From contig JACQQS010000070.1 of assembly GCA_016206925.1 (NCBI GenBank), forward strand, positions 1,899-65,898: a stretch of 64,000 bases of DNA, read 5' to 3'. Below the pieces are notes generated by a model. That model was given only the letters and a program-made list of their open reading frames with translations. It had not been told where the DNA came from and made no database searches. Shown piece by piece: positions 4,440 to 56,575 of the stretch. Both the position numbers and the translations under genes were made by a program. The stretch comes from Candidatus Omnitrophota bacterium. Its GTDB lineage: Bacteria > Omnitrophota > Omnitrophia > Omnitrophales > JACQQS01. Every line of letters starts with the position of its first letter. Positions within the stretch are counted from its first letter, which is position 1.

Positions 4440-5549
4440 ATGAACCGTTTGAATTTGAATTCAACTCATGAACTCTTGATGAAAAAAGCCCTCCAAATAG
4501 CTGAATTAGGGCGGGGGAAGGTGAGCCCCAATCCGCTTGTCGGCGCCTTGTTGGTGAAGAACGGTAATATTGTGGGCCGTGGTGCTCATCTTCGATTTGG
4601 AGGAGTACATGCCGAAATCAATGCTTTACACAGCGCGGGCGCCAGGGCCCGGGGGGCATATCTTTACGTTACGCTTGAACCCTGCTCTTCATGGGGCAAG
4701 ACGGGTCCCTGCGCAGACGCCATCGTTCGTTCTGGAGTTTCTAGGGTCTTTATTGGAGCTATGGATCCGAATCCTGTGAACCATGGAAAAGGCATTCGCA
4801 TTTTGCAGCGTGCGGGATTGAAAGTTGTGCACGGAATTCTGGCGGATCAAGTTTTGCGGCAGAACGCAGGCTTTACGAGCTTGCATCGAAAAGGCCGTCC
4901 TTATGCAATACTCAAGATGGCCCAGAGTTTGGACGGAAAAATCGCAACGTCGAAAGGCGAGTCAAAGTGGATTACCGGTGAGAAGACCAGGGCGTTTGTG
5001 CACCGGTTGCGAACCTCCGTTGATGCCATTCTGGTAGGAACAAATACCATACTTCGCGATAATCCAAGCCTGACTGCGCGGTTTGGCGTTTCAAATAAAA
5101 TGCATCCGGCCAGAATAATAATGGATCGAAAACTGCGCATGGGCACGAGCACAAAGGTGCTCAAGGCGAATGAAGCTCCTGTTTTTTATGCAACGTCTTC
5201 CAAAAATGTTTCTTTAGCTTCGACAGAACGTTTAGCCAAGCGAGCCGAAGTGATCGGCGTTCGCGAGAAAGGGAGGGGTCTTGATTTAAAGCAGTTGCTG
5301 AAAAAGCTGGGCCGGAAGGGAATCACGTCCATCTTGGTAGAAGGGGGCGGGGAACTAGCAGCCTCATTTTTAAAGGAGAAATTAGTGGACGAGGTTTATT
5401 GGTGTATCGCGCCTATTTTTGTAGGCGGCCGTAACTCAAAGACTTCAGTGGAAGGAAGGGGAATCGCAAGATTAAAACACGCATACCGGTTGAAGGACGT
5501 TAAAATACGTCGGATAGGAAACGATATAATCGTAAAAGGCAAGTTCTAG
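4440..5549 (+). CDS. ribD: Bifunctional riboflavin biosynthesis deaminase/reductase RibD
   Basis: CMP/dCMP deaminase zinc motif (HAEINAL ... TLEPCSSWGKTGPC) followed by a RibD_C reductase domain (KMAQSLDGKIA...ILVGTNTILRDNPSLT). Confidence 0.95.
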   Translation: MNRLNLNSTHELLMKKALQIAELGRGKVSPNPLVGALLVKNGNIVGRGAHLRFGGVHAEINALHSAGARARGAYLYVTLEPCSSWGKTGPCADAIVRSGVSRVFIGAMDPNPVNHGKGIRILQRAGLKVVHGILADQVLRQNAGFTSLHRKGRPYAILKMAQSLDGKIATSKGESKWITGEKTRAFVHRLRTSVDAILVGTNTILRDNPSLTARFGVSNKMHPARIIMDRKLRMGTSTKVLKANEAPVFYATSSKNVSLASTERLAKRAEVIGVREKGRGLDLKQLLKKLGRKGITSILVEGGGELAASFLKEKLVDEVYWCIAPIFVGGRNSKTSVEGRGIARLKHAYRLKDVKIRRIGNDIIVKGKF

Positions 5550-5550
5550 C

Positions 5551-6186
5551 ATGTTTTCCGGGATTATTGAGAGATTGGTTATTGTAGAAAAGCTCGAACG
5601 AACATCGAGAGGTGTTCGTTTCGCGATTGCGTACAAAAATGAGGTGGCTCCCGTTCAAGAAGGGGAGAGCATCGCCATTAACGGCGTATGTTTGACGGCT
5701 GCGGCAATGGAGGAAGGAAGATTTTGGGTGGAAGCGGTAAAGGAGACTTTGGAGGCTACGACACTTTCCAGTGTCAAAACACATGATCGCGTCAATCTTG
5801 AGCGTTCGCTAAAGGTCGGCGACAAGATCAGCGGACATTTTGTCTTGGGGCATGTCGACGGCGTTGCTGTAATTCAAAAAGTAAATCGAAATGCGGAGAC
5901 TCATGATCTCACATTAAAAGTGCCTGAAATTTGCGAGCCGTTCATGGTGGCCAAGGGTTCGATTGCTGTCGACGGCATCAGTCTGACTATTCAAGCGGTC
6001 CAGGGGAAAACTTGTTCTGTTGCTGTTATTCCGCATACCGCGGCCATGACGACACTGGGTTTCAGAAAAGAAGGAGACCGGGTGAACCTAGAAACAGACG
6101 TGCTGGCAAAGTATGTCCAATTAAGAAGTAATCCGGAGCAGCCATTTCCGTTTACCGTTGATTCGCTTCGCGAACTGGGGTTTTGA
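5551..6186 (+). CDS. ribE: Riboflavin synthase (alpha chain)
   Basis: N-terminal MFSGIIE and a duplicated lumazine-binding barrel (SIAINGVCLT / SIAVDGISLT). Confidence 0.95.
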   Translation: MFSGIIERLVIVEKLERTSRGVRFAIAYKNEVAPVQEGESIAINGVCLTAAAMEEGRFWVEAVKETLEATTLSSVKTHDRVNLERSLKVGDKISGHFVLGHVDGVAVIQKVNRNAETHDLTLKVPEICEPFMVAKGSIAVDGISLTIQAVQGKTCSVAVIPHTAAMTTLGFRKEGDRVNLETDVLAKYVQLRSNPEQPFPFTVDSLRELGF

Positions 6187-6214
6187 ATCTCCGGTAAAAA
6201 CCGGGTATTTTAGC

Positions 6215-6242
6215 TTGACATAACCCTTTATCAAAATATAAT
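6215..6242 (+). promoter_or_regulatory. Sigma70-type promoter candidate for the DUF4870 gene
   Basis: TTGACA (6215-6220), 16-nt spacer, TATAAT (6237-6242). It lies 24 nt upstream of the SD/ATG at 6266. Confidence 0.5.
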
Positions 6243-6265
6243 TTACAGTAATTTTGGAGGGAAAT

Positions 6266-6610
6266 ATGAGCGAACATTCCGACCCATCGAAAAAAGCCGC
6301 AGATCCGGAAATTGAAGAAGGCAAGTTTTTTGCTGCCGTTGGTTACATCTTTGTTTTGTGCTTGGTTCCGCTGATTCTCAAGAAAGGTAACAAGTTCGCC
6401 GCTTTTCACGGCAAGCAAGGTTTGGTCTTGTTGATCTTAGAAGTGGCGGCTGCCATTTTAAAAGTTGTCCCGGTCATCGGACCGGTGATTGCTACGCTTG
6501 CATTCGTTGTTTTCGGCATTTTGTCGCTCGTAGGCATTTTAAAGGTACTCATCGGAGAGTATTGGGAAATGCCGGTTGTCTATGATATTGCCAGAAAAAT
6601 CAACGTCTGA
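6266..6610 (+). CDS. DUF4870 (Tic20-related) small membrane protein
   Basis: I prefer ATG 6266, preceded by GGAGGG (6256-6261), over the TTG at 6254. It has three TM helices and the K.NKFAAFHGKQGL motif typical of DUF4870/COG3296. Confidence 0.6.
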   Translation: MSEHSDPSKKAADPEIEEGKFFAAVGYIFVLCLVPLILKKGNKFAAFHGKQGLVLLILEVAAAILKVVPVIGPVIATLAFVVFGILSLVGILKVLIGEYWEMPVVYDIARKINV

Positions 6611-6673
6611 TTCCGCTGGTGGACAGGCCGGCCTTCCTGCGCATCTTTAGTTCGTTTCTGAACCTATTTATAA

Positions 6674-6702
6674 TTGACCCCCTCTGGTTATTCGGGTAGA
6701 AT
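6674..6702 (+). promoter_or_regulatory. Sigma70-type promoter candidate
   Basis: TTGACC (6674-6679), 17-nt spacer, TAGAAT (6697-6702), upstream of the coiled-coil gene. Confidence 0.4.
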
Positions 6703-6746
6703 GCCCGTGCTTTTGCACTTTTCTTGCGGACAGGATAAATTCAATC

Positions 6747-8354
6747 ATGTTTACAAACACCCTTCGAGTTCTCAAAAAATCTCCCGCCTCAGACTGGAGC
6801 GTCATTCTAAATCCGATCCATAGCGAAATTGCCAAAAATGAAGCGGTTCAAAAAATTGTAGAAGTTTTCCCGATTACGGCGAGTGAGGCCGAAGAATTGG
6901 TTGAAAGAACCCCGCTCATTTTATTGGAATCTCTTTCAGAAGAAGATGCGCATCGAGTTCGCGAGCATTTTGCACGCGCCAACGTCGACTTGATGGTAAG
7001 CGTCGATGCAACGTTGCGGCGTCGTTGCTATAGGACGGTTTGGCCTGAGCGGCCGTCATTAGACTTCATCAAAAGGGTTGAATCAAGTCCAGCGGTTTCG
7101 GAGGATGATTTTCTAAGGAAGGACGAGCCGCGACGGGAAACGCCTGTCAATAATAGCCGTCCTGCGACTCTTGAGCGCTCTCCCGTAGATCGTTCCAAAC
7201 CCACACTAACCGATAATGGCTATTTTAAGTCCGTTCCTAAGAAAATAGAGAAATCGGACTTTGCTCGCCGCTACGCGTTCGAAGAAACGCCCCCCGAAGC
7301 CAGATATTCTGCCGAGCGGCTGCCAATGCCTGAGCGTGACTCGCTTATTGATGAGTTAAAGGATAGATTGCTGGGCATGCAGAGAAAAGCTTCTGAGGCC
7401 GAGGAAGAAAATAGGCGTCTCCGGTTGTCCCTCGAGAAGTTGGAGAAGGAAAAAAACGAACAGATGGCTGCCAACGGTTTGGAAACACAGCGCAGAAGTT
7501 TTGATTCGCTCAGTTTTGAATATGAAAAGAAGCAGGTACTATTGGAAGAAAAGGTCGAACAGTTAATCGATGAGCGAGACCAGTTAATCGATGATCTTTC
7601 CCGAGTCCGATCTCGACTTGGGGAGGTCGAGACGGAAAAAAACCGGTTATCATCCGAACAGGAAAGTGTGTTAAAGAAGCTTGCGTTCCGCGAGCAGGAG
7701 CTCGAGCAGATTAAAGTCGTGGTTGACCGGCAGCAGCGCCTGGAAGAAGAGAATAAGCAGCTGCGGTTGCGTTATGAGGATCTTGCTCAGGAAAGCGAGG
7801 AGCGTTACAAAAGGTTTCGGGAGATGGAAGGTGAGAGCAGAGCTGCTGAAATGCGCGCTCAACAGTTGACCGATGAAGTTCAGCGTTTAAAGAAGGAATT
7901 TGAAGAGGAACACGCGAGGGTCCGGGAGGAAGTTGATCTTCTCAGGCGGCGGGCGAAGGAGTTTGAGGTTGTGAAGGCGGAAAACAAGAGTATGCAGGAG
8001 GAACTTAGAGTCGCCCGCGATCGATTGAAGGAATTTACCATTAATCGGGAGCAGCAGGAAGCCATTGCCAAGAGATTGAGACTACAGAATGAGTTGATTG
8101 AGAAGGAAGCGCGGTTAAAGGAGCTGGTGAAAAAGCAGGAAATTATAGAGAGGGAAATTGTCGAACGCGGACAGGTTATCCAGCAGGTTCTCACGGAGCA
8201 GGAAGAAATAGAACGTGAAATTGTCCGTGCAAAGCAGGCTCAAAAGTATATTACTGAGCAAATCAAGTCGCGTGAAAAGCCGCATTTGAGGACACGCGGC
8301 CGGCTGGAAGTGAAATCGCCGGAGGCATTAAACGAAGTCGGCGAAGACATGTAA
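6747..8354 (+). CDS. Long coiled-coil protein with an L7/L12-C-terminal-like N-domain
   Basis: Residues ~30-85 (KNEAVQKIVEVFPITASEAEELVERTPLILLESLSEEDAHRVREHFARANVDLMV) align by eye with the ribosomal L7/L12 CTD pattern (..EAKDLVE.AP..L.E.VS.EEAE.IK..LE.AGA.V). Residues ~190-520 are E/R/K/L/Q-rich heptad-like coiled coil. Confidence 0.6.
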   Translation: MFTNTLRVLKKSPASDWSVILNPIHSEIAKNEAVQKIVEVFPITASEAEELVERTPLILLESLSEEDAHRVREHFARANVDLMVSVDATLRRRCYRTVWPERPSLDFIKRVESSPAVSEDDFLRKDEPRRETPVNNSRPATLERSPVDRSKPTLTDNGYFKSVPKKIEKSDFARRYAFEETPPEARYSAERLPMPERDSLIDELKDRLLGMQRKASEAEEENRRLRLSLEKLEKEKNEQMAANGLETQRRSFDSLSFEYEKKQVLLEEKVEQLIDERDQLIDDLSRVRSRLGEVETEKNRLSSEQESVLKKLAFREQELEQIKVVVDRQQRLEEENKQLRLRYEDLAQESEERYKRFREMEGESRAAEMRAQQLTDEVQRLKKEFEEEHARVREEVDLLRRRAKEFEVVKAENKSMQEELRVARDRLKEFTINREQQEAIAKRLRLQNELIEKEARLKELVKKQEIIEREIVERGQVIQQVLTEQEEIEREIVRAKQAQKYITEQIKSREKPHLRTRGRLEVKSPEALNEVGEDM

Positions 8355-47426: not shown

Positions 47427-48437
47427 ATGATCCGGGAGGCGGCCTCTCTGCTCCATTTGGGAAAACTGGTCATATTTCCGACAGAAACGGTTTACGGTAT
47501 CGCGGCGGCTATTTCGCAGAAGGAAGCGGCTGATCGGATCTACGAATTAAAGAACCGGCCGCCCGACAAGCCGCTTACTTGGCATGTCGCCGATTATGAT
47601 TATTTGAACAAGCAGGGCATAATGCTTTCACCGCTTGCGCGTGAGCTTAGCCGGCGGTTTTTGCCGGGCCCTTTAACCGTCATTGTAGCGGGCCAAAATA
47701 ATCAAACGGTGGGGCTTCGATTTCCGGATCACCCGGTTGCGCAGGCGTTGATAGAATCCGCAGGAGAGCCTCTTTTGGCCACGAGCGTAAATAAATCCGG
47801 GGACGAAGCTATTGCTTCCGGAAAAAAGGCGGCACGGCTTTTTAACGGCCGGGTTGACCTGGTTTTGGACAGCGGCGTCACCAGGTTTGGAATTGACTCA
47901 ACGGTCATTGATCTTACAAAGGATGAGCCGGCTATTCTCCGGCGCGGGCCATGGGTTAACGATATTGAGGAATTTATCAAAGAAGTTTCTTCCAGACCGA
48001 ATGTTGAGACCGAGCATATTCTTTTTGTCTGTACGGGAAATACCTGCCGCTCCGTAATGGCCGCCGGCTGGCTTTCTGCCGAAATTAAGCGGCGGGGCTT
48101 TCAAAATAAAATGTCTGTGGCGTCTTGCGGAACATCGGCAACGGAAGGTATGCCTGCCACACTCGAGGCGATTCAGGTGGTTCGCGCTTCCGGGGGTGAA
48201 ATATCCGGGCATCGGGCGCGCGGTTTGACCAAAAAACTTCTTCAAGATGCAACAAAGATTTTTGCAATGACCAGTTCCCATGTTGACGCCATCGTTAGAT
48301 TGGATTCACGCGCCGCATCAAAGGTTACTGTGCTGGGCATTCAGGATCCGCTGGGCAGCGATCTTAAGGTATATAAGGAAACACTGGAAGCATTGAAGCA
48401 AAACTTAAGGAAGTCCCTGACATGGCTCGCAGAGTAG
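47427..48437 (+). CDS. Fusion of L-threonylcarbamoyladenylate synthase (YrdC/Sua5 domain) with a low-molecular-weight protein phosphatase
   Basis: The N-terminal half is YrdC (G.LVIFPTETVYGIAA, GPLT.I, SVNKSG, DST.ID). The C-terminal half is LMW-PTP (ILFVCTGNTCRS P-loop, D-loop IQDPLG). The true N-terminus may lie upstream (see findings). Confidence 0.85.
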   Translation: MIREAASLLHLGKLVIFPTETVYGIAAAISQKEAADRIYELKNRPPDKPLTWHVADYDYLNKQGIMLSPLARELSRRFLPGPLTVIVAGQNNQTVGLRFPDHPVAQALIESAGEPLLATSVNKSGDEAIASGKKAARLFNGRVDLVLDSGVTRFGIDSTVIDLTKDEPAILRRGPWVNDIEEFIKEVSSRPNVETEHILFVCTGNTCRSVMAAGWLSAEIKRRGFQNKMSVASCGTSATEGMPATLEAIQVVRASGGEISGHRARGLTKKLLQDATKIFAMTSSHVDAIVRLDSRAASKVTVLGIQDPLGSDLKVYKETLEALKQNLRKSLTWLAE

Positions 48438-50758: not shown

Positions 50759-52150
50759 ATGGTCATAAGATATCGAAAGCTAATTCAAGGAAGGGTGGCT
50801 TTGAAGCAATTTCTATCGGTTGTGCTTTTTGTTTTTCTTCTCTCTTTTCTTTCCCAAGATCATGTCCTTGCCACAACTTCTTACGACCCGTATGCGCCCG
50901 TTTCCCGTGAAGAACGCGATGAGCGGTTAAGCTTAACCAAACGCCGCGAGTTCATCCGCCCGGTTGCAGATATTTTCGCCCTGCCTTTTGATATCGTAAA
51001 GCTCGCGCTGGACCCCGTCACCTATGAAGTTGAATCGCGTCATATTCCGCGTAAACTTACTTGGATTTATGACGAGCTGAAAGAGAAAGGCATCAAGCCT
51101 TTTATACAAAATAAAGGTAAGGGAGCTGCGGTCGGTTTGGATATCGAAGCGGTCAAGTTGGCCCGGCTGGAAGAGCGTCTGCCGGGCGTTGCATGGCATA
51201 ATAAAGTTAAGTGGATTTCGGTGCGTGATCAGTTTCTATTGAGCTCCGCGCCCAAGATCGATCGAATATTCGACACACCGCTTTCCCTGTGCGCCGGCTT
51301 TCAGTACGAATTGCTGGGAGAGGAGGATTTTTGGGGAATCGGTCCGGATTCCGGTTTAGGACAGGGTTCCAATTATGAGCAGGAAAAGACACAGTTTACG
51401 TTGGGTGCCGATTTTGATATTAATTTCGTTGCCAAGGCAACGTTCGATTTCGGGTATGAGCATGTAAACATCGCAGAAGGACATGACAGTAATGAAACGC
51501 ATGGCGGCGGGAAAAATAACATCAAAGCTGCTTTTCCGACGCTTGAGGGCATTAACGGATCGGATGAAATTAACTTTGTGTGGGGTCTCGAATACGACAG
51601 GCGCAATAATAACAAACGCCCGACGAAAGGGCACCGTGAGAAAATCACATTTGGCTACCACCATGGTGTCCGCGGTTCAGATGCCCGTTACTTCGAATAT
51701 TTGACCGATTTATCGATCTTTGTGCCGGTCTTCAGCGAACGCCGGGTGCTTGCGGTGCGCTTTTACGGCGAGCACAATAACGAACTGGATAGCGACGAAG
51801 TCCCGTTCTTTAATAAAGCCCGGCTGGGTGGCCATCAGACCGATCCGGAAGAGGGCCTGCCGCTTCGAAGTTTTGAACGGAACCGGTTTTTTGACGATTC
51901 GGTAGCTGTTCTAAACATTGAATATCGCTACAACATTTGGCATTATCGTGACTACAAGCTGGATGCGGTCGTTTTCTTTGATGAAGGACAGGTCTTTGAT
52001 AAGTTTTCGGAAATTCAATGGGGAGATTTTCAGGAATCTTACGGCGGCGGATTTAGAGTGTACGTGCTCGATAGAAATATCTTCACCGCGGAGATTGCGC
52101 ACGGCAACGAAGGGACAGAATTTTATGCGAGAACCGGTACCGTTTTTTAA
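50759..52150 (+). CDS. Omp85-family outer-membrane beta-barrel (Bac_surface_Ag-like), no recognisable POTRA
   Basis: Signal peptide. C-terminal Omp85 pattern (RLGGHQT...LRSFERNRF.DDS.AVLNIEYRY........LDAVVFFDEGQVF......SYGGGFRV) and terminal F (..YARTGTVF). The alternative start TTG 50801 has a better SD (AAGGAAGGG). Confidence 0.7.
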   Translation: MVIRYRKLIQGRVALKQFLSVVLFVFLLSFLSQDHVLATTSYDPYAPVSREERDERLSLTKRREFIRPVADIFALPFDIVKLALDPVTYEVESRHIPRKLTWIYDELKEKGIKPFIQNKGKGAAVGLDIEAVKLARLEERLPGVAWHNKVKWISVRDQFLLSSAPKIDRIFDTPLSLCAGFQYELLGEEDFWGIGPDSGLGQGSNYEQEKTQFTLGADFDINFVAKATFDFGYEHVNIAEGHDSNETHGGGKNNIKAAFPTLEGINGSDEINFVWGLEYDRRNNNKRPTKGHREKITFGYHHGVRGSDARYFEYLTDLSIFVPVFSERRVLAVRFYGEHNNELDSDEVPFFNKARLGGHQTDPEEGLPLRSFERNRFFDDSVAVLNIEYRYNIWHYRDYKLDAVVFFDEGQVFDKFSEIQWGDFQESYGGGFRVYVLDRNIFTAEIAHGNEGTEFYARTGTVF

Positions 52151-53825
52151 AGCCGTTTTGCAGCGGGCAAATTTACTTCTTGCCGTCGGCGTTGTTCTGG
52201 CGAGTGTGGCCGGCATTGCTATCGCCCAGGAAATGTCCGTCGAATCTCTGCCGGATGATTATACTCCGAAGGAGCGCAAGCAAGCGCTTGCGCTTGACGT
52301 TTACCGTCAGAATATTCATCAAGAGTTTACGCATTTTTTAAGGAAGAGTGAAACGATTCGCCACATCAAGCGCGGAAAATTGCCCGCACTTGATGTGAAC
52401 GATTTCGATGAAGTGCCGGATTCGCTTTTCTTTACGAACCGCCACGGGAAGAAGAAATTGTCCGGTCAGGAGTTAAAGGCGGGCCCTGTTCAGGGCAGTT
52501 CGGGTGGCCCAAGAACCGGCGAGTGGAAAGTAACCAAAGGCAAAAGCGGCGGCCTGAGTCGCGGTATGTTTATTGAAGATTCCGGCGGAGCAAAATTTCT
52601 TCTAAAATTTGATCCCGAAGATAATCCCGAAGTTGCCTCAGGCGCCGAAAGCGTTGCAAGCCGGACATTTCATGCCGTCGGATACAATGTTCCGGAGTAT
52701 TACGTCACTTATTTCAGCCGCGATCAATTGAGACCGGCTCCGGGTGCTAAATACTATGCAAAAAGTGGATTCAAGAAACCGCTGACCGATGAAGGAATCG
52801 ATGAAATTCTCTCTGGCGTTCCTCAAACAAGGGACGGCCGTTACCGGGCCTCCGCAAGCCGTCTTCTCCCGGGCGAAGTGCTGGGCCGTGAAGAATACGA
52901 CAGAAGGAGAAAGCAGGATCCGAACGACCCGGTTTGGCATCGTGACCGGCGCACATTCCGGGCTTTACGTGTTTTTGCCTCATGGATAAATTATTATGAT
53001 CTTGTGCCGCAAAATTCCCTTGAGGTTGTTGAAAGCGTCGATGGAAAGCGCGCTATCAGGCATTACATCATTGATTTTGGGTCCTCACTAGGCAGCGCGG
53101 GTAATTTGGTGAAGCCGGACATGTATGGGTTCGAGCATATGCTCGATTACGGTGAGGTCTTCAAGTCATTCATTACGCTCGGGTTTTATCGAAAGCCTTG
53201 GGAAAAGAGGGCGGATGAAATACCTCAAGAGATACCGCTCGCCTCCGTGGGCAATTTTGACAACAAGGAGTTTCACCCGGAAAAATGGAAAACACAGCTG
53301 CCTGTTTATGCGTTTAAAGAATTGACCCCTGCGGATGCTTTCTGGGCAGCCAAGATTATCATGGAGTTTAGCGACGAAGATATCCGAACACTAGTCGAAA
53401 CGGGTGAGTATACGGACAAACAGGCTGTGGATTATTTAACCCTGACCTTGGCCGAAAGACGCGACATGATCGGGCGTTACTGGTTTGATAAGGTTAGCCC
53501 GCTCGACGAAATAGACGCCGCCGCGCAAGGCGGAAATTTGTCCATCCGCTTTGTTGATCTTTCCGAAACGTATGGCTTTACCTCAGCCGGAGACACCTCG
53601 TACCGCTATGAAGTTTTCGATGTGGATTCCGATGGCGATAAAGAGAATTCTCTGGCATCCGGTATGGCGGAGCAGAGCCCTATTTCATTGACTCAGGGAC
53701 AATGGACACCGTCCGGAACAAATATCGTTGAGATACAAGCGAAGCGCAGCGCTTCTGGCGAATGGCTTCCCCCCGTGACTTTGGAGATATCGCAAGCTCA
53801 GCTTGCAGGAATCCATCGCGATTAG
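52125..53825 (+). CDS. Exported protein with kinase-like (PI3/4-kinase / protein-kinase-like fold) motifs
   Basis: I prefer ATG 52125 (signal peptide MREPVPFFKAVLQRANLLLAVGVVLASVAGIAIA), which overlaps the barrel gene by 26 nt, over 51918. Motifs in order: GAKFLLKF (Lys), GAESVASR (Glu), FASWINYYDLVPQNSL (D....N catalytic-loop-like) and HYIIDFGSSLGS (DFG-like). By-eye inference. Confidence 0.5.
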   Translation: MREPVPFFKAVLQRANLLLAVGVVLASVAGIAIAQEMSVESLPDDYTPKERKQALALDVYRQNIHQEFTHFLRKSETIRHIKRGKLPALDVNDFDEVPDSLFFTNRHGKKKLSGQELKAGPVQGSSGGPRTGEWKVTKGKSGGLSRGMFIEDSGGAKFLLKFDPEDNPEVASGAESVASRTFHAVGYNVPEYYVTYFSRDQLRPAPGAKYYAKSGFKKPLTDEGIDEILSGVPQTRDGRYRASASRLLPGEVLGREEYDRRRKQDPNDPVWHRDRRTFRALRVFASWINYYDLVPQNSLEVVESVDGKRAIRHYIIDFGSSLGSAGNLVKPDMYGFEHMLDYGEVFKSFITLGFYRKPWEKRADEIPQEIPLASVGNFDNKEFHPEKWKTQLPVYAFKELTPADAFWAAKIIMEFSDEDIRTLVETGEYTDKQAVDYLTLTLAERRDMIGRYWFDKVSPLDEIDAAAQGGNLSIRFVDLSETYGFTSAGDTSYRYEVFDVDSDGDKENSLASGMAEQSPISLTQGQWTPSGTNIVEIQAKRSASGEWLPPVTLEISQAQLAGIHRD

Positions 53826-53848
53826 ATTTACATGGCGGGAGTAAATCA

Positions 53849-54310
53849 ATGGGCATTACAGAACAGAAACCCCAGACCCGTTGGTCAGCATCCATCGGAT
53901 TTTTACTTTTAATTGCGCTGCCCGTCCTCCTGCTTTTACCGGAAGCATTCCAATTTCCTGCCAAAACCAGGGTTCTCCAAACAAGAAATGGCCTCGAGCA
54001 TATCCGGGAGCGCATCGGGCTTTTTTCACGGCATCATGGAAGGGCTCCTCATTCGCTATCGGAACTTCTCACGGAAACCTATGAAACCAAAGGATCCGTC
54101 AGAGAGCCGTATTTGGAGAAGATTCCGATCGAGACGATATCGTCTCAGGAGGGAACCGGAGAATTTGTGGACGTGTTAAATACGCAGGAAATACACAAGC
54201 CGGGAGGCTGGATGTATCAAATGGATTTGGGCGAGATCCACGTAAATGTCCACAAGAAGCTGGATAAGCGCTGGGGAGAATTTAGGGGCGAGATTCCGAG
54301 CAACTGGTGA
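53849..54310 (+). CDS. Hypothetical membrane-anchored protein, weakly pseudopilin/GspG-like
   Basis: I prefer ATG 53849 (GGGAG upstream). It has an N-terminal hydrophobic helix and a C-terminal GGWMYQMDLGEIHVN resembling the GspG-type GW.Y....G.I tail. No canonical prepilin G/FTLIE site. Confidence 0.35.
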   Translation: MGITEQKPQTRWSASIGFLLLIALPVLLLLPEAFQFPAKTRVLQTRNGLEHIRERIGLFSRHHGRAPHSLSELLTETYETKGSVREPYLEKIPIETISSQEGTGEFVDVLNTQEIHKPGGWMYQMDLGEIHVNVHKKLDKRWGEFRGEIPSNW

Positions 54311-55664
54311 CACCGATGGGATGTTGCTCCGATGCAAGAAATCGCAACATGCCGAGCCAGAGAATCACGGTTCCCCACGTCATGGCTCCCAAGTTTAATA
54401 ACGGTTTAAAGGCATATCCGAAAATTATAAAGAGAACCGAAAGCCAGACAGCCCATTTCAATAATTTTAGCTTCCCCGAAGTTGCCTCCTTTGTCTCCAA
54501 GACGGTGAACACTCCGAGATAAGCGGGAAATAGTGTTGAAAAATAATGCGACCAGGCCAAGGGCGAAGATATAAGAAGCACTGCAACGGGAACGGAAAAT
54601 TCAATAAGTTTTAAGCGGGCGTCATTCCGGTTTTTTCTCAAGAAATAGAAAGAGGACACGATTAGAATGAGGATGACCGCGTAAGATAACAAGCGCGGAA
54701 GCATGACGCCTCGCTCCATTAATCCTTCCCGGCTTCGAAGAATTAACCTGCACAGAACAGCATAAATCGACTGGTTCTTAAGGATAAAAGGATCGTGAAC
54801 TTGCCGCCACCACAGGAGTGGATCGGAGTAGAATTCATCATCCGTTGCGGGGATCCGATAGGTACTGAACGGCACCTTGTTCAACCATTGGTCGAGGTAT
54901 TCGAAATTTCTTTCAAATCCGAAATAAAGTCCCGGGAGAATGATAAGAAAAAGCGCTAGGCCGGCAAGCGTCCACAGGACGATTTTCCAGTTCTGTTTGA
55001 CGGCAAAGAATATCAGGAGTAAGGCTGCTGGAGTAACTTTGGTTGCGATAGCAAAGCCCAGTGAAAGACCGCATAGCGCGCTTTTTCTGCGGATCCATCC
55101 ATAGAGAGATAACATCAACGAAAGAAGAATGAGAATTCCGATCTGACCGCGCGTTGCCACATCGGAGAAGGGGATTGCACAGACAAAGAAGCTGAGACCG
55201 AGGATTTTCCATTTCTTTTGTGCCGCAAGATGTTCCGGAAGAAGTTTAAAAGAAATTCGGGCAATCCAGGCCAGGAAACCGATCGTAACCGCGTAAAAAG
55301 CCAGGGCGTTCCAGGCCAGCGAACCCCAGGCCAGTGAGATGAATAGAATAGATAGAAACGGCGGGCTCGTAAAAAACCAGGCCCGGCTGTTTTCAGCTTT
55401 GTAGATGTCTTTGCCGGTGAGCGCGTTTATTCCGGCTGCTTTATAAACGCCAAGATCAGTACGCTCTTTTATATCGAACCCTGCGCGGAATACCGTGGAT
55501 GCGCCTACGCCCATAATCGTTCCCGCGATGGCAATCGTGACAAGCCATTTGCGCGATTGGGCTAATAAACCGTTCGAGATTGATTTAAACTTCATGGGCC
55601 GGGAATTATATAACAGGCGCTGTTTTTCCGATATATCTTTTTTGATGTCTTTGATGTCAAACAA
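54282..55664 (-). CDS. Polytopic membrane glycosyltransferase-like protein (DUF2029/GT87- or GT-C-like)
   Basis: It has about 11 predicted TM helices with the loop organisation typical of GT-C enzymes. Family assignment is by general resemblance only. Confidence 0.5.
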   Translation of the reverse strand: MFDIKDIKKDISEKQRLLYNSRPMKFKSISNGLLAQSRKWLVTIAIAGTIMGVGASTVFRAGFDIKERTDLGVYKAAGINALTGKDIYKAENSRAWFFTSPPFLSILFISLAWGSLAWNALAFYAVTIGFLAWIARISFKLLPEHLAAQKKWKILGLSFFVCAIPFSDVATRGQIGILILLSLMLSLYGWIRRKSALCGLSLGFAIATKVTPAALLLIFFAVKQNWKIVLWTLAGLALFLIILPGLYFGFERNFEYLDQWLNKVPFSTYRIPATDDEFYSDPLLWWRQVHDPFILKNQSIYAVLCRLILRSREGLMERGVMLPRLLSYAVILILIVSSFYFLRKNRNDARLKLIEFSVPVAVLLISSPLAWSHYFSTLFPAYLGVFTVLETKEATSGKLKLLKWAVWLSVLFIIFGYAFKPLLNLGAMTWGTVILWLGMLRFLASEQHPIGVTSCSESRP

Positions 55665-55711: not shown

Positions 55712-56575
55712 TTGGAAAAAATTTTGGTAACGGGGTTAAATGGTCTCATTGGCTGGCATTGCTTTCATGCTGCTCTCCGCCGCCATGAAACGTTCGGCAC
55801 ATTCAGCCGGTTTCATCCGCCGTTTGACCAAAACAATTGCGTTTATTCAAACCTCGATTCAAGAAAACGTACACGCGCCCTATTGGAAAAAACCAGGCCG
55901 AGCGTCATTATCCACACCAGGTGCATTTGCGATCTGGATGTCTGCGAAATTCAGCCAGCCCTGACCGAGCGGATCAATGTAGAAGGCACGCAACGGCTTC
56001 TTGAAGAAGCGGAGCGGATCGGCACCGTAAAGAAATTTTGTTACCTTTCGACCGACCACGTGTTTAACGGCGACCGTGGTCACTATTCTGAACTGGATAC
56101 ACCCTGCCCGAAGCATGTGTACGGCCGGACGAAAGTGGCAGCGGAAGGAATCGCTTGCCGTTCGCGATTGCCCTGGTTGATCGTGCGGCCGGGATTGGTC
56201 ATCGGTCGAAGCCCGCAAGGCAATAAAGGACCGCGTGACTGGCTGTTTTCCAGACTCCGCAAAGGACTTCAGTCGCATTTGTTTACCGATGAATGGCGGA
56301 CTCCGGTATGGGCCGAGGCGCTTTCAGAAAAAATCCTTCAGCTTATTGAAACCGGTCAGCAGGGTGTTTTTCATATTGCAGGTTGCGTGCGCATAAACCG
56401 TTATGAGCTTGGACTTGCACTGGCACGCCGGGAGGGAATCGATACGGTCGCGCTTCGATCAAAGTTTCGGGCCCAAGATAGGTGGAGCCATATCCGTCCG
56501 AACGAACTGACTTTAAAATCTGTATATCTGGAACCGCCGGAGTTTGAACTGGGGGCCTTTGGTAAGCATGCTTAA
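55712..56575 (+). CDS. SDR-family NAD(P)-dependent reductase, dTDP-4-dehydrorhamnose reductase (RmlD)-like
   Basis: TTG start. ILVTGLNGLIG Rossmann motif, STDHVFNG....Y.E.D...P...YGRTK..AE (RmlD substrate-binding pattern, YxxxK). Confidence 0.7.
   Translation: MEKILVTGLNGLIGWHCFHAALRRHETFGTFSRFHPPFDQNNCVYSNLDSRKRTRALLEKTRPSVIIHTRCICDLDVCEIQPALTERINVEGTQRLLEEAERIGTVKKFCYLSTDHVFNGDRGHYSELDTPCPKHVYGRTKVAAEGIACRSRLPWLIVRPGLVIGRSPQGNKGPRDWLFSRLRKGLQSHLFTDEWRTPVWAEALSEKILQLIETGQQGVFHIAGCVRINRYELGLALARREGIDTVALRSKFRAQDRWSHIRPNELTLKSVYLEPPEFELGAFGKHA

What the first reader, a model, noticed from the sequence alone, without database searches (positions are those of the whole stretch)
50759..53825. 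POTRA-less Omp85-type barrel translationally overlapped with an exported kinase-like protein
The 463-aa protein has a signal peptide, the Omp85/Bac_surface_Ag C-terminal pattern and a terminal Phe. I see no POTRA-like N-domain. Its last 26 nt overlap the start of a 566-aa signal-peptide protein. That protein's central region carries, in the correct order:
- a beta3-Lys-like FLLKF;
- a helix-C-Glu-like AES;
- a catalytic-loop-like YYDLVPQN (D....N);
- a IIDFGS (DFG) motif.

This resembles PI3/4-kinase or HipA/protein-kinase-like folds. A kinase-like enzyme destined for the periplasm or surface and paired with a dedicated barrel would resemble a two-partner export pair with an unusual cargo. This is inference from motifs only.
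Basis: inference. Interest (0 to 1): 0.55.

Follow-up and report, generated by a model that had tools for sequence, protein, structure and literature searches.

The report
Exported kinase-like enzyme with dedicated barrel
A POTRA-less outer-membrane barrel gene overlaps the gene for an exported, unannotated kinase-like enzyme; this pair recurs in hundreds of bacterial species, often beside an ATP/ADP-type transporter and exported phosphatases, which suggests phosphorylation outside the cytoplasm.

Summary
ORF 50759..52150 is a 16-strand Omp85 barrel with no POTRA domain. Its last 26 nt overlap ORF 52125..53825, a 566-aa protein with a signal peptide.

The 566-aa protein has no Pfam or NCBIfam family. 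Its confident AlphaFold model matches secreted and atypical kinases: H. pylori CtkA, Fam20C and HipT. 19 of 60 family members give weak HipA_2 hits.

The pair is a conserved unit:
- 67 of 69 loci have the barrel gene directly upstream.
- At least 579 species genomes carry the family, in Omnitrophota, Zixibacteria, Acidobacteria, Ignavibacteria and others.
- Pairwise distances of the two proteins correlate at r = 0.92.

In relatives, though not in this window, the operon also holds an NTT or NTT-HEAT nucleotide exchanger. It also holds an exported phosphoesterase (PTP or Metallophos) and sometimes a DUF5329 lipoprotein.

The best reading is an envelope phosphorylation module. ATP supply by the transporter and the substrate are inference. 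Two-partner secretion is not supported: there is no POTRA domain, no TPS domain, and the barrel keeps a BamA-like lid-lock. PI3/4-kinase membership is not supported either.

The parts
50759..52150 (+). POTRA-less (noNterm-type) Omp85 outer-membrane barrel, 463 aa
   Evidence: Pfam Omp85 E = 1.8e-18. AF2 model with 16 strands. Foldseek matches BamA and TamA barrels, with TamA barrel 4n74 at TMt 0.75.
50759..50875 (+). Omp85 signal peptide (approx. aa 1-39, ...HVLA|TT)
   Evidence: Read directly from the sequence. No predictor was run.
50906..51085 (+). Periplasmic N-terminal helical extension of the barrel (aa 50-109), in place of POTRA
   Evidence: AF2 helices 50-93 and 96-109, pLDDT 53-87. 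Conserved residues P76, K99, W102.
51092..52132 (+). 16-strand beta-barrel (aa 112-458)
51866..51868 (+). Loop-6 Arg370 of the (L/V)RG(Y/F) motif (LRSF here, LRGY in the consensus), invariant
51974..51988 (+). beta13 FxDxG lid-lock motif (FFDEG). G410 is invariant; F406 and D408 are >= 90% conserved
52125..52150 (+). 26-nt overlap: the Omp85 C-terminal beta-signal (…YARTGTVF-stop) read in another frame as MREPVPFF of the partner
   Evidence: The same -26 ATG occurs in about 26 Omnitrophota loci.
52125..53825 (+). Exported kinase-like protein, 566 aa, with no Pfam or NCBIfam family
52125..52229 (+). Signal peptide or signal anchor (aa 1-35, ...AIA|QE)
   Evidence: Read directly from the sequence. 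Homologues carry signal peptides or lipoboxes.
52392..52445 (+). Family-specific N-terminal motif DVNDFDEVPDSLFFTNRH. E96 and R106 are invariant in 79 sequences
52524..53147 (+). Kinase-like core (aa 134-341): beta1-beta3, helix C, beta4-5, an insert, helix E, the catalytic loop, a beta-hairpin and DFG
   Evidence: AF2 secondary structure. Foldseek hits to CtkA, Fam20C and HipT. Weak HipA_2 and HipA_C hits on the N-lobe of relatives.
52533..52568 (+). Gly-rich loop TKGKSGGLSRGM (G139, K140, G143, G147)
52605..52607 (+). K161, the beta3 Lys
   Evidence: 64/79 conserved.
52647..52649 (+). E175, the helix-C Glu
   Evidence: 71/79 conserved.
52992..53015 (+). Catalytic loop YYDLVPQN with D292 and N297. 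The family consensus is (H/N)xDx(R/K)xxN; here V294 replaces the usual R/K
53067..53084 (+). IIDFGS, the DFG-type metal-binding Asp317
   Evidence: D317 73/79 and F318 78/79 conserved.
53307..53486 (+). Helical domain (aa 395-454) with invariant D404, W407 and R445
53502..53819 (+). C-terminal FnIII/Ig-like beta-sandwich (aa 460-565), ending in a conserved G-I-x-H-x-D
   Evidence: Foldseek hits to cytokine-receptor FnIII domains and monobodies. Alignment.

Best explanation
The two genes encode a conserved, co-inherited envelope module.

The first product is a 16-strand, BamA/TamA-like Omp85 barrel. In place of POTRA domains it has a short helical periplasmic extension. The second product is exported by Sec, with a signal peptide here and as a lipoprotein in other phyla. 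It is a remote HipA/CtkA-like member of the protein-kinase-like superfamily with a complete catalytic set: Gly-rich loop, K161, E175, D292, N297 and D317-F-G.

I propose three steps:
- The barrel assembles or anchors its partner at the outer membrane.
- The partner acts there as an ATP-dependent phosphotransferase on an envelope substrate, whether protein, lipid or glycan is unknown.
- In most lineages the co-operonic NTT or NTT-HEAT antiporter supplies ATP to the periplasm in exchange for ADP, and a co-operonic exported phosphoesterase reverses the mark.

Shown:
- the anatomy, the export signals, the kinase-like fold and the motif conservation
- synteny, overlap and co-variation of the pair
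- operon partners in relatives

Inferred:
- physical interaction of the pair
- catalysis and use of ATP
- direction of nucleotide transport
- the substrate

The window's own copy belongs to a small sub-clade with no transporter within 10 kb and with V/I instead of R/K at position 294. Its chemistry or nucleotide source may therefore differ.
For: **Fold**
- The AF2 model has pLDDT 89.6 and pTM 0.88.
- Foldseek against PDB gives CtkA 3akk at E = 1.8e-4 and TMt 0.55, Fam20C 4kqa at probability 0.99, and HipT 7ab3 at probability 0.93.
- 19 of 60 members hit Pfam HipA_2 (best E = 7e-5) and 12 of 60 hit HipA_C. The three hits inspected map to the N-lobe, roughly aa 122-206.

**Motifs**
- The catalytic residues are conserved in 81-95% of 79 sequences, and D292 is invariant in the broader A3 alignment.
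- Members outside Omnitrophota read H-x-D-x-K-x-x-N ... I-D-F-G.

**Export**
- Signal peptides or lipoboxes are present in every lineage examined.

**Partnership**
- The Omp85 gene lies immediately upstream in 67/69 loci.
- The genes overlap by 26 nt or are separated by gaps of at most about 35 nt in most loci.
- Pairwise distance matrices correlate at r = 0.92, with 0 of 999 Mantel permutations reaching that value.
- Paralogues on one contig each keep their own barrel (L036 and L044).

**Operon partners in relatives**
- A TLC/NTT gene lies within 6 kb in 42/80 loci. It passes the Pfam threshold and often carries HEAT repeats.
- Exported PTP/DSP phosphatases occur in 8 loci.
- DUF5329 lipoproteins occur in 24 loci.
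- In Zixibacteria, Latescibacteria and Ignavibacteria the order is Omp85, kinase-like, Metallophos lipoprotein, NTT(-HEAT), cNMP-binding.
- In Acidobacteria the order is Omp85, kinase-like, NTT, Metallophos with a signal peptide.
- NTT-HEAT fusions are reported as widespread in free-living bacteria with unknown function (PMC5381601).
Against: - No biochemical data exist for any member.
- No sequence-level membership in a kinase family was found. The HipA hits are below Pfam cut-offs, and hhalign against E. coli HipA, WaaP and an ePK gave nothing.
- Structural matches are moderate (TM 0.35-0.55).
- The most strictly invariant residues (E96, R106, D152, R276, D404, W407, R445) are not the canonical kinase residues. 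K161 is E in 11/79 and N297 is D in 9/79, largely in one Omnitrophota sub-clade.
- The window protein lacks the R/K at D+2.
- The window and its closest relative have no NTT, PTP, Metallophos or DUF5329 nearby.
- The periplasm is conventionally considered ATP-free, and characterised NTTs import ATP.
- No test of physical interaction was possible.
Confidence: 0.5

Rival explanations
1. Two-partner-secretion-like export. The Omp85 barrel translocates the kinase-like protein, or flips the lipoprotein form, to the cell surface or the medium, where it acts on a host, prey or surface substrate.
For: - The barrel and the exported partner are co-transcribed and overlapping.
- The best structural match, CtkA, is described in its PDB entry as a cell-translocating H. 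pylori kinase.
- noNterm Omp85s with downstream lipoprotein genes have been proposed as possible lipoprotein translocators (PMC11358297).
- The FCB-type homologues are lipoproteins.
Against: - There is no POTRA domain.
- The partner has no TPS domain or beta-helix.
- The barrel keeps the BamA-type lid-lock, R370 plus FxDxG.
- The module sits in core-genome contexts and is present in diverse phyla.
- An inner-membrane nucleotide exchanger and exported phosphoesterases in the same operon fit a periplasmic reaction better than a surface one, where ATP would be unavailable.
Confidence: 0.2
2. A non-catalytic role. The kinase-like protein is a pseudokinase or ligand-binding scaffold that partners the barrel in outer-membrane biogenesis, for example assembly of particular OMPs or lipid handling, by analogy with BamA-BamD, LptD-LptE or TamA-TamB.
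For: - The barrel is BamA/TamA-like.
- The strictly invariant residues lie outside the canonical catalytic set.
- One sub-clade has K140E, K161E and N297D.
- The window sub-clade lost R/K294.
- The neighbours in this window are envelope-glycan genes, GT87 and an RmlD-like gene.
Against: - D292 is invariant, and K161, E175, N297 and D317 are >= 90% conserved in the broad alignment. That is unusual for a pure scaffold.
- Recurrent linkage to a nucleotide transporter and to two unrelated phosphoesterase folds points to phosphoryl chemistry.
Confidence: 0.15
3. Nucleotide scavenging. The barrel admits external nucleotides, the kinase-like protein and the phosphoesterase process them in the periplasm, and the NTT imports them. 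In Omnitrophota this would amount to energy parasitism.
For: - NTT family members characterised so far import nucleotides (PMC5381601).
- Metallophos enzymes include periplasmic nucleotidases and cyclic-nucleotide phosphodiesterases; the match to SpdA here is weak.
Against: - A kinase needs a phosphoryl donor in the periplasm anyway.
- Dephosphorylating nucleotides would defeat import by an NTT.
- Omp85 barrels are not known as solute channels, and this one keeps its lid-lock.
- The operon occurs in lineages with large genomes: 3.8 Mb and 4.1 Mb complete records.
Confidence: 0.1

Closest known systems
HipA-like kinases, including H. pylori CtkA (PDB 3akk), HipT (7ab3) and Pfam HipA_C / HipA_2
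   Same: - Bilobal kinase-like fold (Foldseek E about 1e-4, TMt 0.55 for CtkA).
- Weak but recurrent N-lobe sequence similarity: 19/60 and 12/60 members.
- A Lys, Glu, D-x4-N, then D arrangement, with about 25 residues between the two Asp.
   Different: - All Pfam hits are below the gathering thresholds.
- hhalign against E. coli HipA found nothing.
- The protein carries a Sec signal or lipobox and an invariant N-terminal DEVPDSxFFTNR motif.
- It has an insert of about 65 aa in the core, a helical domain and a C-terminal FnIII-like domain.
- It is not next to an antitoxin but to an Omp85 barrel.
Fam20C and other secretory-pathway kinases of eukaryotes
   Same: - A signal-peptide-bearing kinase-like enzyme that works outside the cytosol.
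- Structural similarity (probability 0.99, TMt about 0.35).
- From my own knowledge: their compartment depends on a dedicated ATP importer, which parallels the operonic NTT.
   Different: - Eukaryotic, with no detectable sequence similarity.
- No barrel partner.
- The analogy is functional, not evidence of homology.
noNterm Omp85 subfamily (Heinz and Lithgow 2014, PMC4104836; Leptospira LIC12252/12254/12258, PMC11358297)
   Same: - A 16-strand Omp85 barrel without POTRA.
- Lid-lock motifs retained.
- A lipoprotein or exported-protein gene directly downstream.
- Function unknown.
   Different: - This barrel has a helical N-terminal extension of about 60-70 aa, where the Leptospira proteins have 22-43 aa periplasmic regions.
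- No DUF5982 hit.
- The partner is a kinase-like enzyme rather than a DUF1566 or Big-domain lipoprotein.
- The NCBIfam Omp85_fam match is far below its cut-off (94.7 versus 200 bits).
Two-partner secretion (TpsB/TpsA, e.g. FhaC/FHA) and TamA/TamB
   Same: An Omp85-family barrel gene is tightly coupled to the gene of an exported partner.
   Different: - No POTRA domains and no ShlB-type match.
- The partner has neither a TPS domain and beta-helix nor an AsmA/DUF490-type fold.
NTT-HEAT nucleotide-transporter fusions (Major, Embley and Williams 2017, PMC5381601)
   Same: The transporters next to the pair in relatives are TLC/NTT proteins with C-terminal HEAT repeats. In FCB phyla they are followed by a cNMP-binding protein, exactly the arrangement that paper describes.
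   Different: - That paper searched for 'kinase', 'Omp85' and 'periplasm' returns zero occurrences.
- None of these transporters is present in the 64-kb window.

Membership tests
Omp85 superfamily (PF01103) | 16-strand C-terminal beta-barrel recognised by the family profile | tested here: met
   Pfam E = 1.8e-18, 67.6 bits against a cut-off of 24. AF2 model with 16 strands. Foldseek to BamA/TamA at E about 1e-13 to 1e-14.
Omp85 superfamily (PF01103) | Loop-6 (V/L)RG(Y/F) Arg, the beta13 FxDxG lid-lock, and a C-terminal aromatic residue | tested here: met
   R370, G410 and F463 are invariant; F406 and D408 are >= 90% conserved.
BamA / TamA / TpsB (POTRA-bearing Omp85s) | One or more periplasmic POTRA domains | tested here: not met
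   No POTRA model at E <= 1. The AF2 N-region is helical only.
Two-partner secretion (type Vb) | TpsA cargo with an N-terminal TPS domain and a beta-helix | tested here: not met
   No Pfam hit. The model is an alpha/beta kinase-like core plus a helical domain and a beta-sandwich.
noNterm Omp85 subfamily | Omp85 barrel lacking any recognisable N-terminal periplasmic domain | tested here: met
   Caveat: a helical extension of about 60 aa with conserved residues is present, so 'no N-terminal domain' holds only in the sense of no known domain.
Protein-kinase-like superfamily | Bilobal fold with beta3 Lys, helix-C Glu, catalytic-loop Asp and Asn, and a DFG-type Asp in that order | tested here: met
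   Foldseek hits to CtkA, Fam20C and HipT. Residues lie in the expected elements of the model and are conserved.
Protein-kinase-like superfamily | ATP binding and phosphotransfer activity | not testable with these tools
   Needs biochemistry.
HipA-like kinases (PF07804 HipA_C, PF20613 HipA_2) | Profile match above the Pfam gathering score | tested here: not met
   The window protein gives no hit. Relatives give sub-threshold hits in 19/60 and 12/60 members (best E = 7e-5; best inspected 18.1 bits against 27). hhalign against E. coli HipA found nothing.
PI3/PI4-kinase family (PF00454) | Profile match or closest structural neighbours | tested here: not met
   No Pfam hit at E <= 1 in the window protein or in 60 relatives. 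Not among the top 50 Foldseek matches.
Fam20 secretory kinases | Sequence membership in the Fam20 family | tested here: not met
   No Pfam hit. There is only a fold-level match, probability 0.99 and TMt about 0.35.
NTT/TLC nucleotide transporters (operon partner in relatives) | PF03219 match above threshold | tested here: met
   27.7-90.3 bits against a cut-off of 21 in 8 proteins from relatives. Absent from the window. Transport specificity and direction were not testable.

The most novel reading that the evidence does not exclude
Many diderm bacteria run an ATP-dependent phosphorylation system in the periplasm or outer membrane.

Its proposed parts are:
- an NTT or NTT-HEAT antiporter that exports ATP and retrieves ADP;
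- a Sec-exported HipA/CtkA-like kinase, held by a dedicated POTRA-less Omp85 barrel, that phosphorylates an envelope substrate;
- an exported PTP or Metallophos enzyme that erases the mark.

This would be a bacterial counterpart of the Fam20C plus lumenal ATP-transporter system of the eukaryotic secretory pathway. It would also assign functions to both NTT-HEAT fusions and a noNterm Omp85 clade.
Probability: 0.3. Interest if true: 0.9.

Novelty: new variant of a known kind. Interest (0 to 1): 0.72.

Why it matters
The periplasm is generally treated as lacking ATP, so energy-dependent chemistry there is thought to need trans-envelope machines.

A very large, unannotated family of exported kinase-like enzymes contradicts that expectation. 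One search found 3646 representative proteins in the 50%-identity library, and one search found at least 579 species genomes. The family keeps its catalytic residues and is repeatedly encoded with a nucleotide exchanger and exported phosphoesterases. Together these suggest a testable route to extracytoplasmic phosphorylation in bacteria.

The finding also offers concrete hypotheses for two orphan groups. One is the NTT-HEAT transporters of free-living bacteria, whose function is unknown (PMC5381601). The other is the noNterm Omp85 barrels, whose function is also unknown (PMC11358297). In addition it defines a protein family that has no Pfam or NCBIfam model.

Tried and rejected
**Sequence searches for a kinase family**
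- Pfam and NCBIfam on the 566-aa protein gave nothing except a sub-threshold DUF4330 hit on the N-terminal region.
- phmmer and two profile searches against PDB sequences gave no kinase. The only results were chance hits to armadillo repeats, AbxO and an IgA-Fc-receptor.
- hhalign of the family profile against E. coli HipA, E. coli WaaP and an ePK Ser/Thr kinase from L080 found no relationship. Single-sequence targets make this a weak test.

**Alternative assignments considered and dropped**
- PI3/4-kinase: no support.
- Horizontal-transfer island: GC content is flat across the window, and the locus lies among housekeeping genes.

**Local features checked**
- Promoter and terminator scans around the pair were no better than shuffles.
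- The downstream 182-aa ORF 53762..54310 has no Pfam hit and no homologue in any fetched locus, so I do not count it as part of the module.

**The two loci without an adjacent barrel**
- L080 has a Ser/Thr-kinase-TPR gene inserted between the two genes.
- L083 has only fragmentary ORFs upstream.

**Literature**
- Searches for the pair, for DUF5329 and for Omnitrophota nucleotide translocases found nothing relevant.


Full report
**1.

ORF 50759..52150 (+) encodes 463 aa ending in ...YARTGTVF. ORF 52125..53825 (+) encodes 566 aa. They overlap by 26 nt, so the barrel's C-terminal beta-signal and stop codon are read in another frame as MREPVPFF(K) of the second protein. The second protein is 100% identical to a 'hypothetical protein' of a Candidatus Omnitrophica MAG and has the same start. 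GC content is flat across the window. The neighbours are housekeeping genes: purine biosynthesis, Sua5, rpiB, glyA and nrdR upstream; GT87, an RmlD-like gene, def and an ABC system downstream. Nothing suggests an island.

**2. The barrel**

- Pfam Omp85 matches at E = 1.8e-18. No POTRA, ShlB or other N-domain model matched at E <= 1.
- NCBIfam gives only sub-threshold Omp85_fam and BamA matches.
- An AF2 model built on 35 homologues (pLDDT 82.5) has a signal peptide, two long low-confidence helices (aa 50-109) and 16 strands (aa 112-458). There is no POTRA unit.
- Foldseek finds BamA and TamA barrels. The TamA barrel 4n74 scores TMt 0.75.
- The loop-6 Arg (R370; LRGY in the consensus, LRSF here), the beta13 FxDxG motif (FFDEG) and the terminal Phe are invariant or nearly so.

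This is a noNterm-type Omp85. Published work describes that group as functionally unknown. In Leptospira its members are followed by lipoprotein genes (PMC11358297 and PMC4104836).

**3. The partner is kinase-like**

It has no Pfam or NCBIfam family and no relative in PDB by sequence. The family is very large:
- more than 1346 clusters found with the window query;
- 6582 found with an Ignavibacteria query;
- 3646 representative proteins in the 50%-identity library.

All listed members are unnamed or 'hypothetical' and lack a Pfam domain.

The AF2 model on 53 homologues is confident, with pLDDT 89.6 and pTM 0.88. Its best enzyme matches in PDB are:
- H. pylori CtkA: E = 1.8e-4, TMt 0.55;
- the Golgi casein kinase Fam20C: probability 0.99;
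- HipT: probability 0.93.

The C-terminal 100 residues match FnIII-type beta-sandwiches.

The secondary-structure order matches a protein-kinase-like core:
- beta1-Gly-rich loop-beta2 (134-151);
- beta3 ending in K161;
- a helix carrying E175;
- beta4 and beta5, then an insert;
- a helix at 281-287, then the loop with D292 and N297;
- a beta-hairpin (298-315), then D317-F-G.

Conservation across 79 sequences from several phyla is K161 64, E175 71, D292 75, N297 67 and D317 73. In a broader 60-sequence alignment D292 is invariant and the other four are >= 90% conserved. Members outside Omnitrophota read (N)H-x-D-x-K-x-x-N ... I-D-F-G-S. When 60 members were scanned individually, 19 gave sub-threshold hits to Pfam HipA_2 (best E = 7e-5) and 12 to HipA_C. 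The three hits I inspected map to the N-lobe.

I therefore place the family as a remote HipA/CtkA-like branch of the kinase-like superfamily, not as a member of any defined family. PI3/4-kinase is not supported.

Four caveats apply:
- hhalign against single HipA, WaaP and ePK sequences was negative.
- The strictly invariant residues (E96, R106, D152, R276, D404, W407, R445) lie outside the canonical set.
- One Omnitrophota sub-clade carries K140E, K161E and N297D.
- The window protein and its three closest relatives have V or I where the family has R/K at D+2.

**4. It is extracytoplasmic**

The window protein begins with a basic n-region, an 18-residue hydrophobic stretch and AIA|QE. Omnitrophota homologues have similar signal peptides. 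Homologues in Zixibacteria, Ignavibacteria, Calditrichia, Deltaproteobacteria and Poribacteria have lipoboxes, so they are lipoproteins. No signal-peptide predictor was available, so this is read from the sequences.

**5. The pair is a conserved unit**

A scan of one genome per species found relatives in at least 579 genomes. Most are Omnitrophota. Others are labelled Zixibacteria, Acidobacteria/Blastocatellia, Ignavibacteria, Calditrichaceae, Poribacteria, Deltaproteobacteria, Bacteroidota and Deferribacteres.
- Of 69 loci with enough upstream sequence, 67 have an Omp85 homologue immediately upstream on the same strand. The two exceptions are an inserted Ser/Thr-kinase gene (L080) and a fragmentary region (L083).
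- About 26 Omnitrophota loci keep an ATG exactly 26 nt before the barrel's stop. Most others have gaps of 1-35 nt.
- The conserved 'LFK' at residues 7-9 of the partner is simply the barrel's 'F-stop' read in the other frame.
- Pairwise distances of the two proteins across 64 loci correlate at r = 0.92, with 0 of 999 Mantel permutations reaching that value. This is expected from co-inheritance and does not prove contact.
- Two divergent copies on one contig each have their own barrel (L036 and L044).

**6. Operon partners in relatives**

| Lineage | Gene order |
|---|---|
| Many Omnitrophota | (exported PTP/DSP phosphatase), Omp85, kinase-like, NTT-HEAT, DUF5329 lipoprotein; or NTT-HEAT, DUF5329, Omp85, kinase-like |
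| Zixibacteria, an unclassified bacterium, Latescibacteria, Ignavibacteria | Omp85, kinase-like lipoprotein, Metallophos lipoprotein, NTT(-HEAT), cNMP-binding protein (the Zixibacteria locus L091 has a plain NTT and no cNMP-binding gene) |
| Acidobacteria | Omp85, kinase-like, NTT, Metallophos with signal peptide |

Overall 42 of 80 loci have a TLC/NTT gene within 6 kb. That is far above what one or two such genes per genome would give by chance; this is my estimate, not a computed statistic.

The NTT-HEAT followed by a cNMP-binding protein is the arrangement described by Major et al. 2017. They found these fusions widely in free-living bacteria and could not assign a function. Searching that paper for 'kinase', 'Omp85' and 'periplasm' returned no occurrences (PMC5381601).

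None of these partners is in the 64-kb window or within 10 kb in the closest relative.

**7. Interpretation**

Every non-transporter component carries an export signal. Two unrelated phosphoesterase folds recur beside the kinase-like gene. The gene order is shuffled between phyla while the set is kept. Together these point to phosphoryl chemistry in the envelope.

The most economical model has four parts:
- The barrel holds or assembles the kinase-like enzyme at the outer membrane.
- The enzyme uses ATP.
- The NTT, being an exchanger, delivers ATP to the periplasm and retrieves ADP.
- The phosphoesterase reverses the modification.

All four steps are inference, and the substrate is unknown. 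The rivals are a TPS-like surface export, a non-catalytic scaffold role in outer-membrane biogenesis, and nucleotide scavenging. I weigh them in the report sections.

For the window's own sub-clade the model is weaker, because it has no local transporter and has lost R/K294.

**8. Novelty**

The components belong to known superfamilies: Omp85, protein-kinase-like and NTT. The kinase-like family itself has no model in Pfam or NCBIfam. Its obligatory pairing with a POTRA-less barrel and the operon architecture were not found in the literature searches I could run. I rate it a new variant of known kinds, with about a 30% chance that it represents a new kind of system: ATP-dependent periplasmic phosphorylation.

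Noticed in passing
L048, L051-L053, L056, L057, L059, L060, L065, L070 (kinase-like genes near locus coordinates 5900-7650; L048 at 531-2177, L052 at 5241-6893 and L056 at 864-2513): A sub-clade of Omnitrophota homologues has K140E, K161E and N297D (…AAEQRGIYPRFW…LLEFDP…DLRESDTLD…) but keeps D292 and D317-F and its own upstream Omp85. It may be a pseudo-enzyme or have altered chemistry.
   Followed up: partly
L036 and L044 (both on contig JBMONI010000012.1); L008 and L045 (same MAG, nzgw333): Some genomes carry two divergent copies of the pair, each kinase-like gene with its own barrel. L036 versus L044 differ by 47% in the kinase-like protein and 60% in the barrel.
   Followed up: partly
window 52143..52150 and the equivalent positions in homologues: The conserved 'LFK' or 'FFK' at residues 7-9 of the kinase-like protein is a by-product of the overlap. 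It is the barrel's terminal Phe codon plus TAA read in the +1 frame.
   Followed up: yes
window 53762..54310 (+): A 182-aa ORF overlaps the 3' end of the kinase-like gene by 64 nt and contains a hydrophobic segment. It has no Pfam hit and no homologue in any fetched locus, and the closest relative (L087) has no gene there. It is probably not part of the module and may not be a gene.
   Followed up: partly
window 54282..55664 (-) and 55712..56575 (+): A GT87-family membrane glycosyltransferase and an RmlD/epimerase-like gene directly follow the pair. The same arrangement is conserved in the closest relative (L087). This envelope-glycan context is specific to this sub-clade.
   Followed up: partly
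window 47427..48437 (+): In the closest relative (L087) the syntenic 361-aa gene carries Sua5/YciO/YrdC and low-molecular-weight phosphatase (LMWPc) Pfam hits in one product. The 336-aa window ORF at the same position was not scanned.
   Followed up: no
L081:2365-3756 (Poribacteria): A second Omp85 gene, this one with a POTRA domain (Pfam Omp85 plus POTRA), lies directly downstream of the kinase-like gene, in addition to the POTRA-less one upstream.
   Followed up: no
L091:7561-8469 (Zixibacteria, CP070813): A PAP2-family membrane phosphatase gene sits immediately upstream of the Omp85 gene. PAS/response-regulator and 7TMR-DISM histidine-kinase genes flank the FCB-type operons, as also seen in L092 and L093.
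   Followed up: no
L001, L003, L005, L088: In many Omnitrophota the module is inserted at a fixed core-genome position, after rpsP-trmD-rplS-rnhB-YraN and before a PALP (cysK-like) gene and a JAB gene. The window sub-clade has it after nrdR instead.
   Followed up: partly
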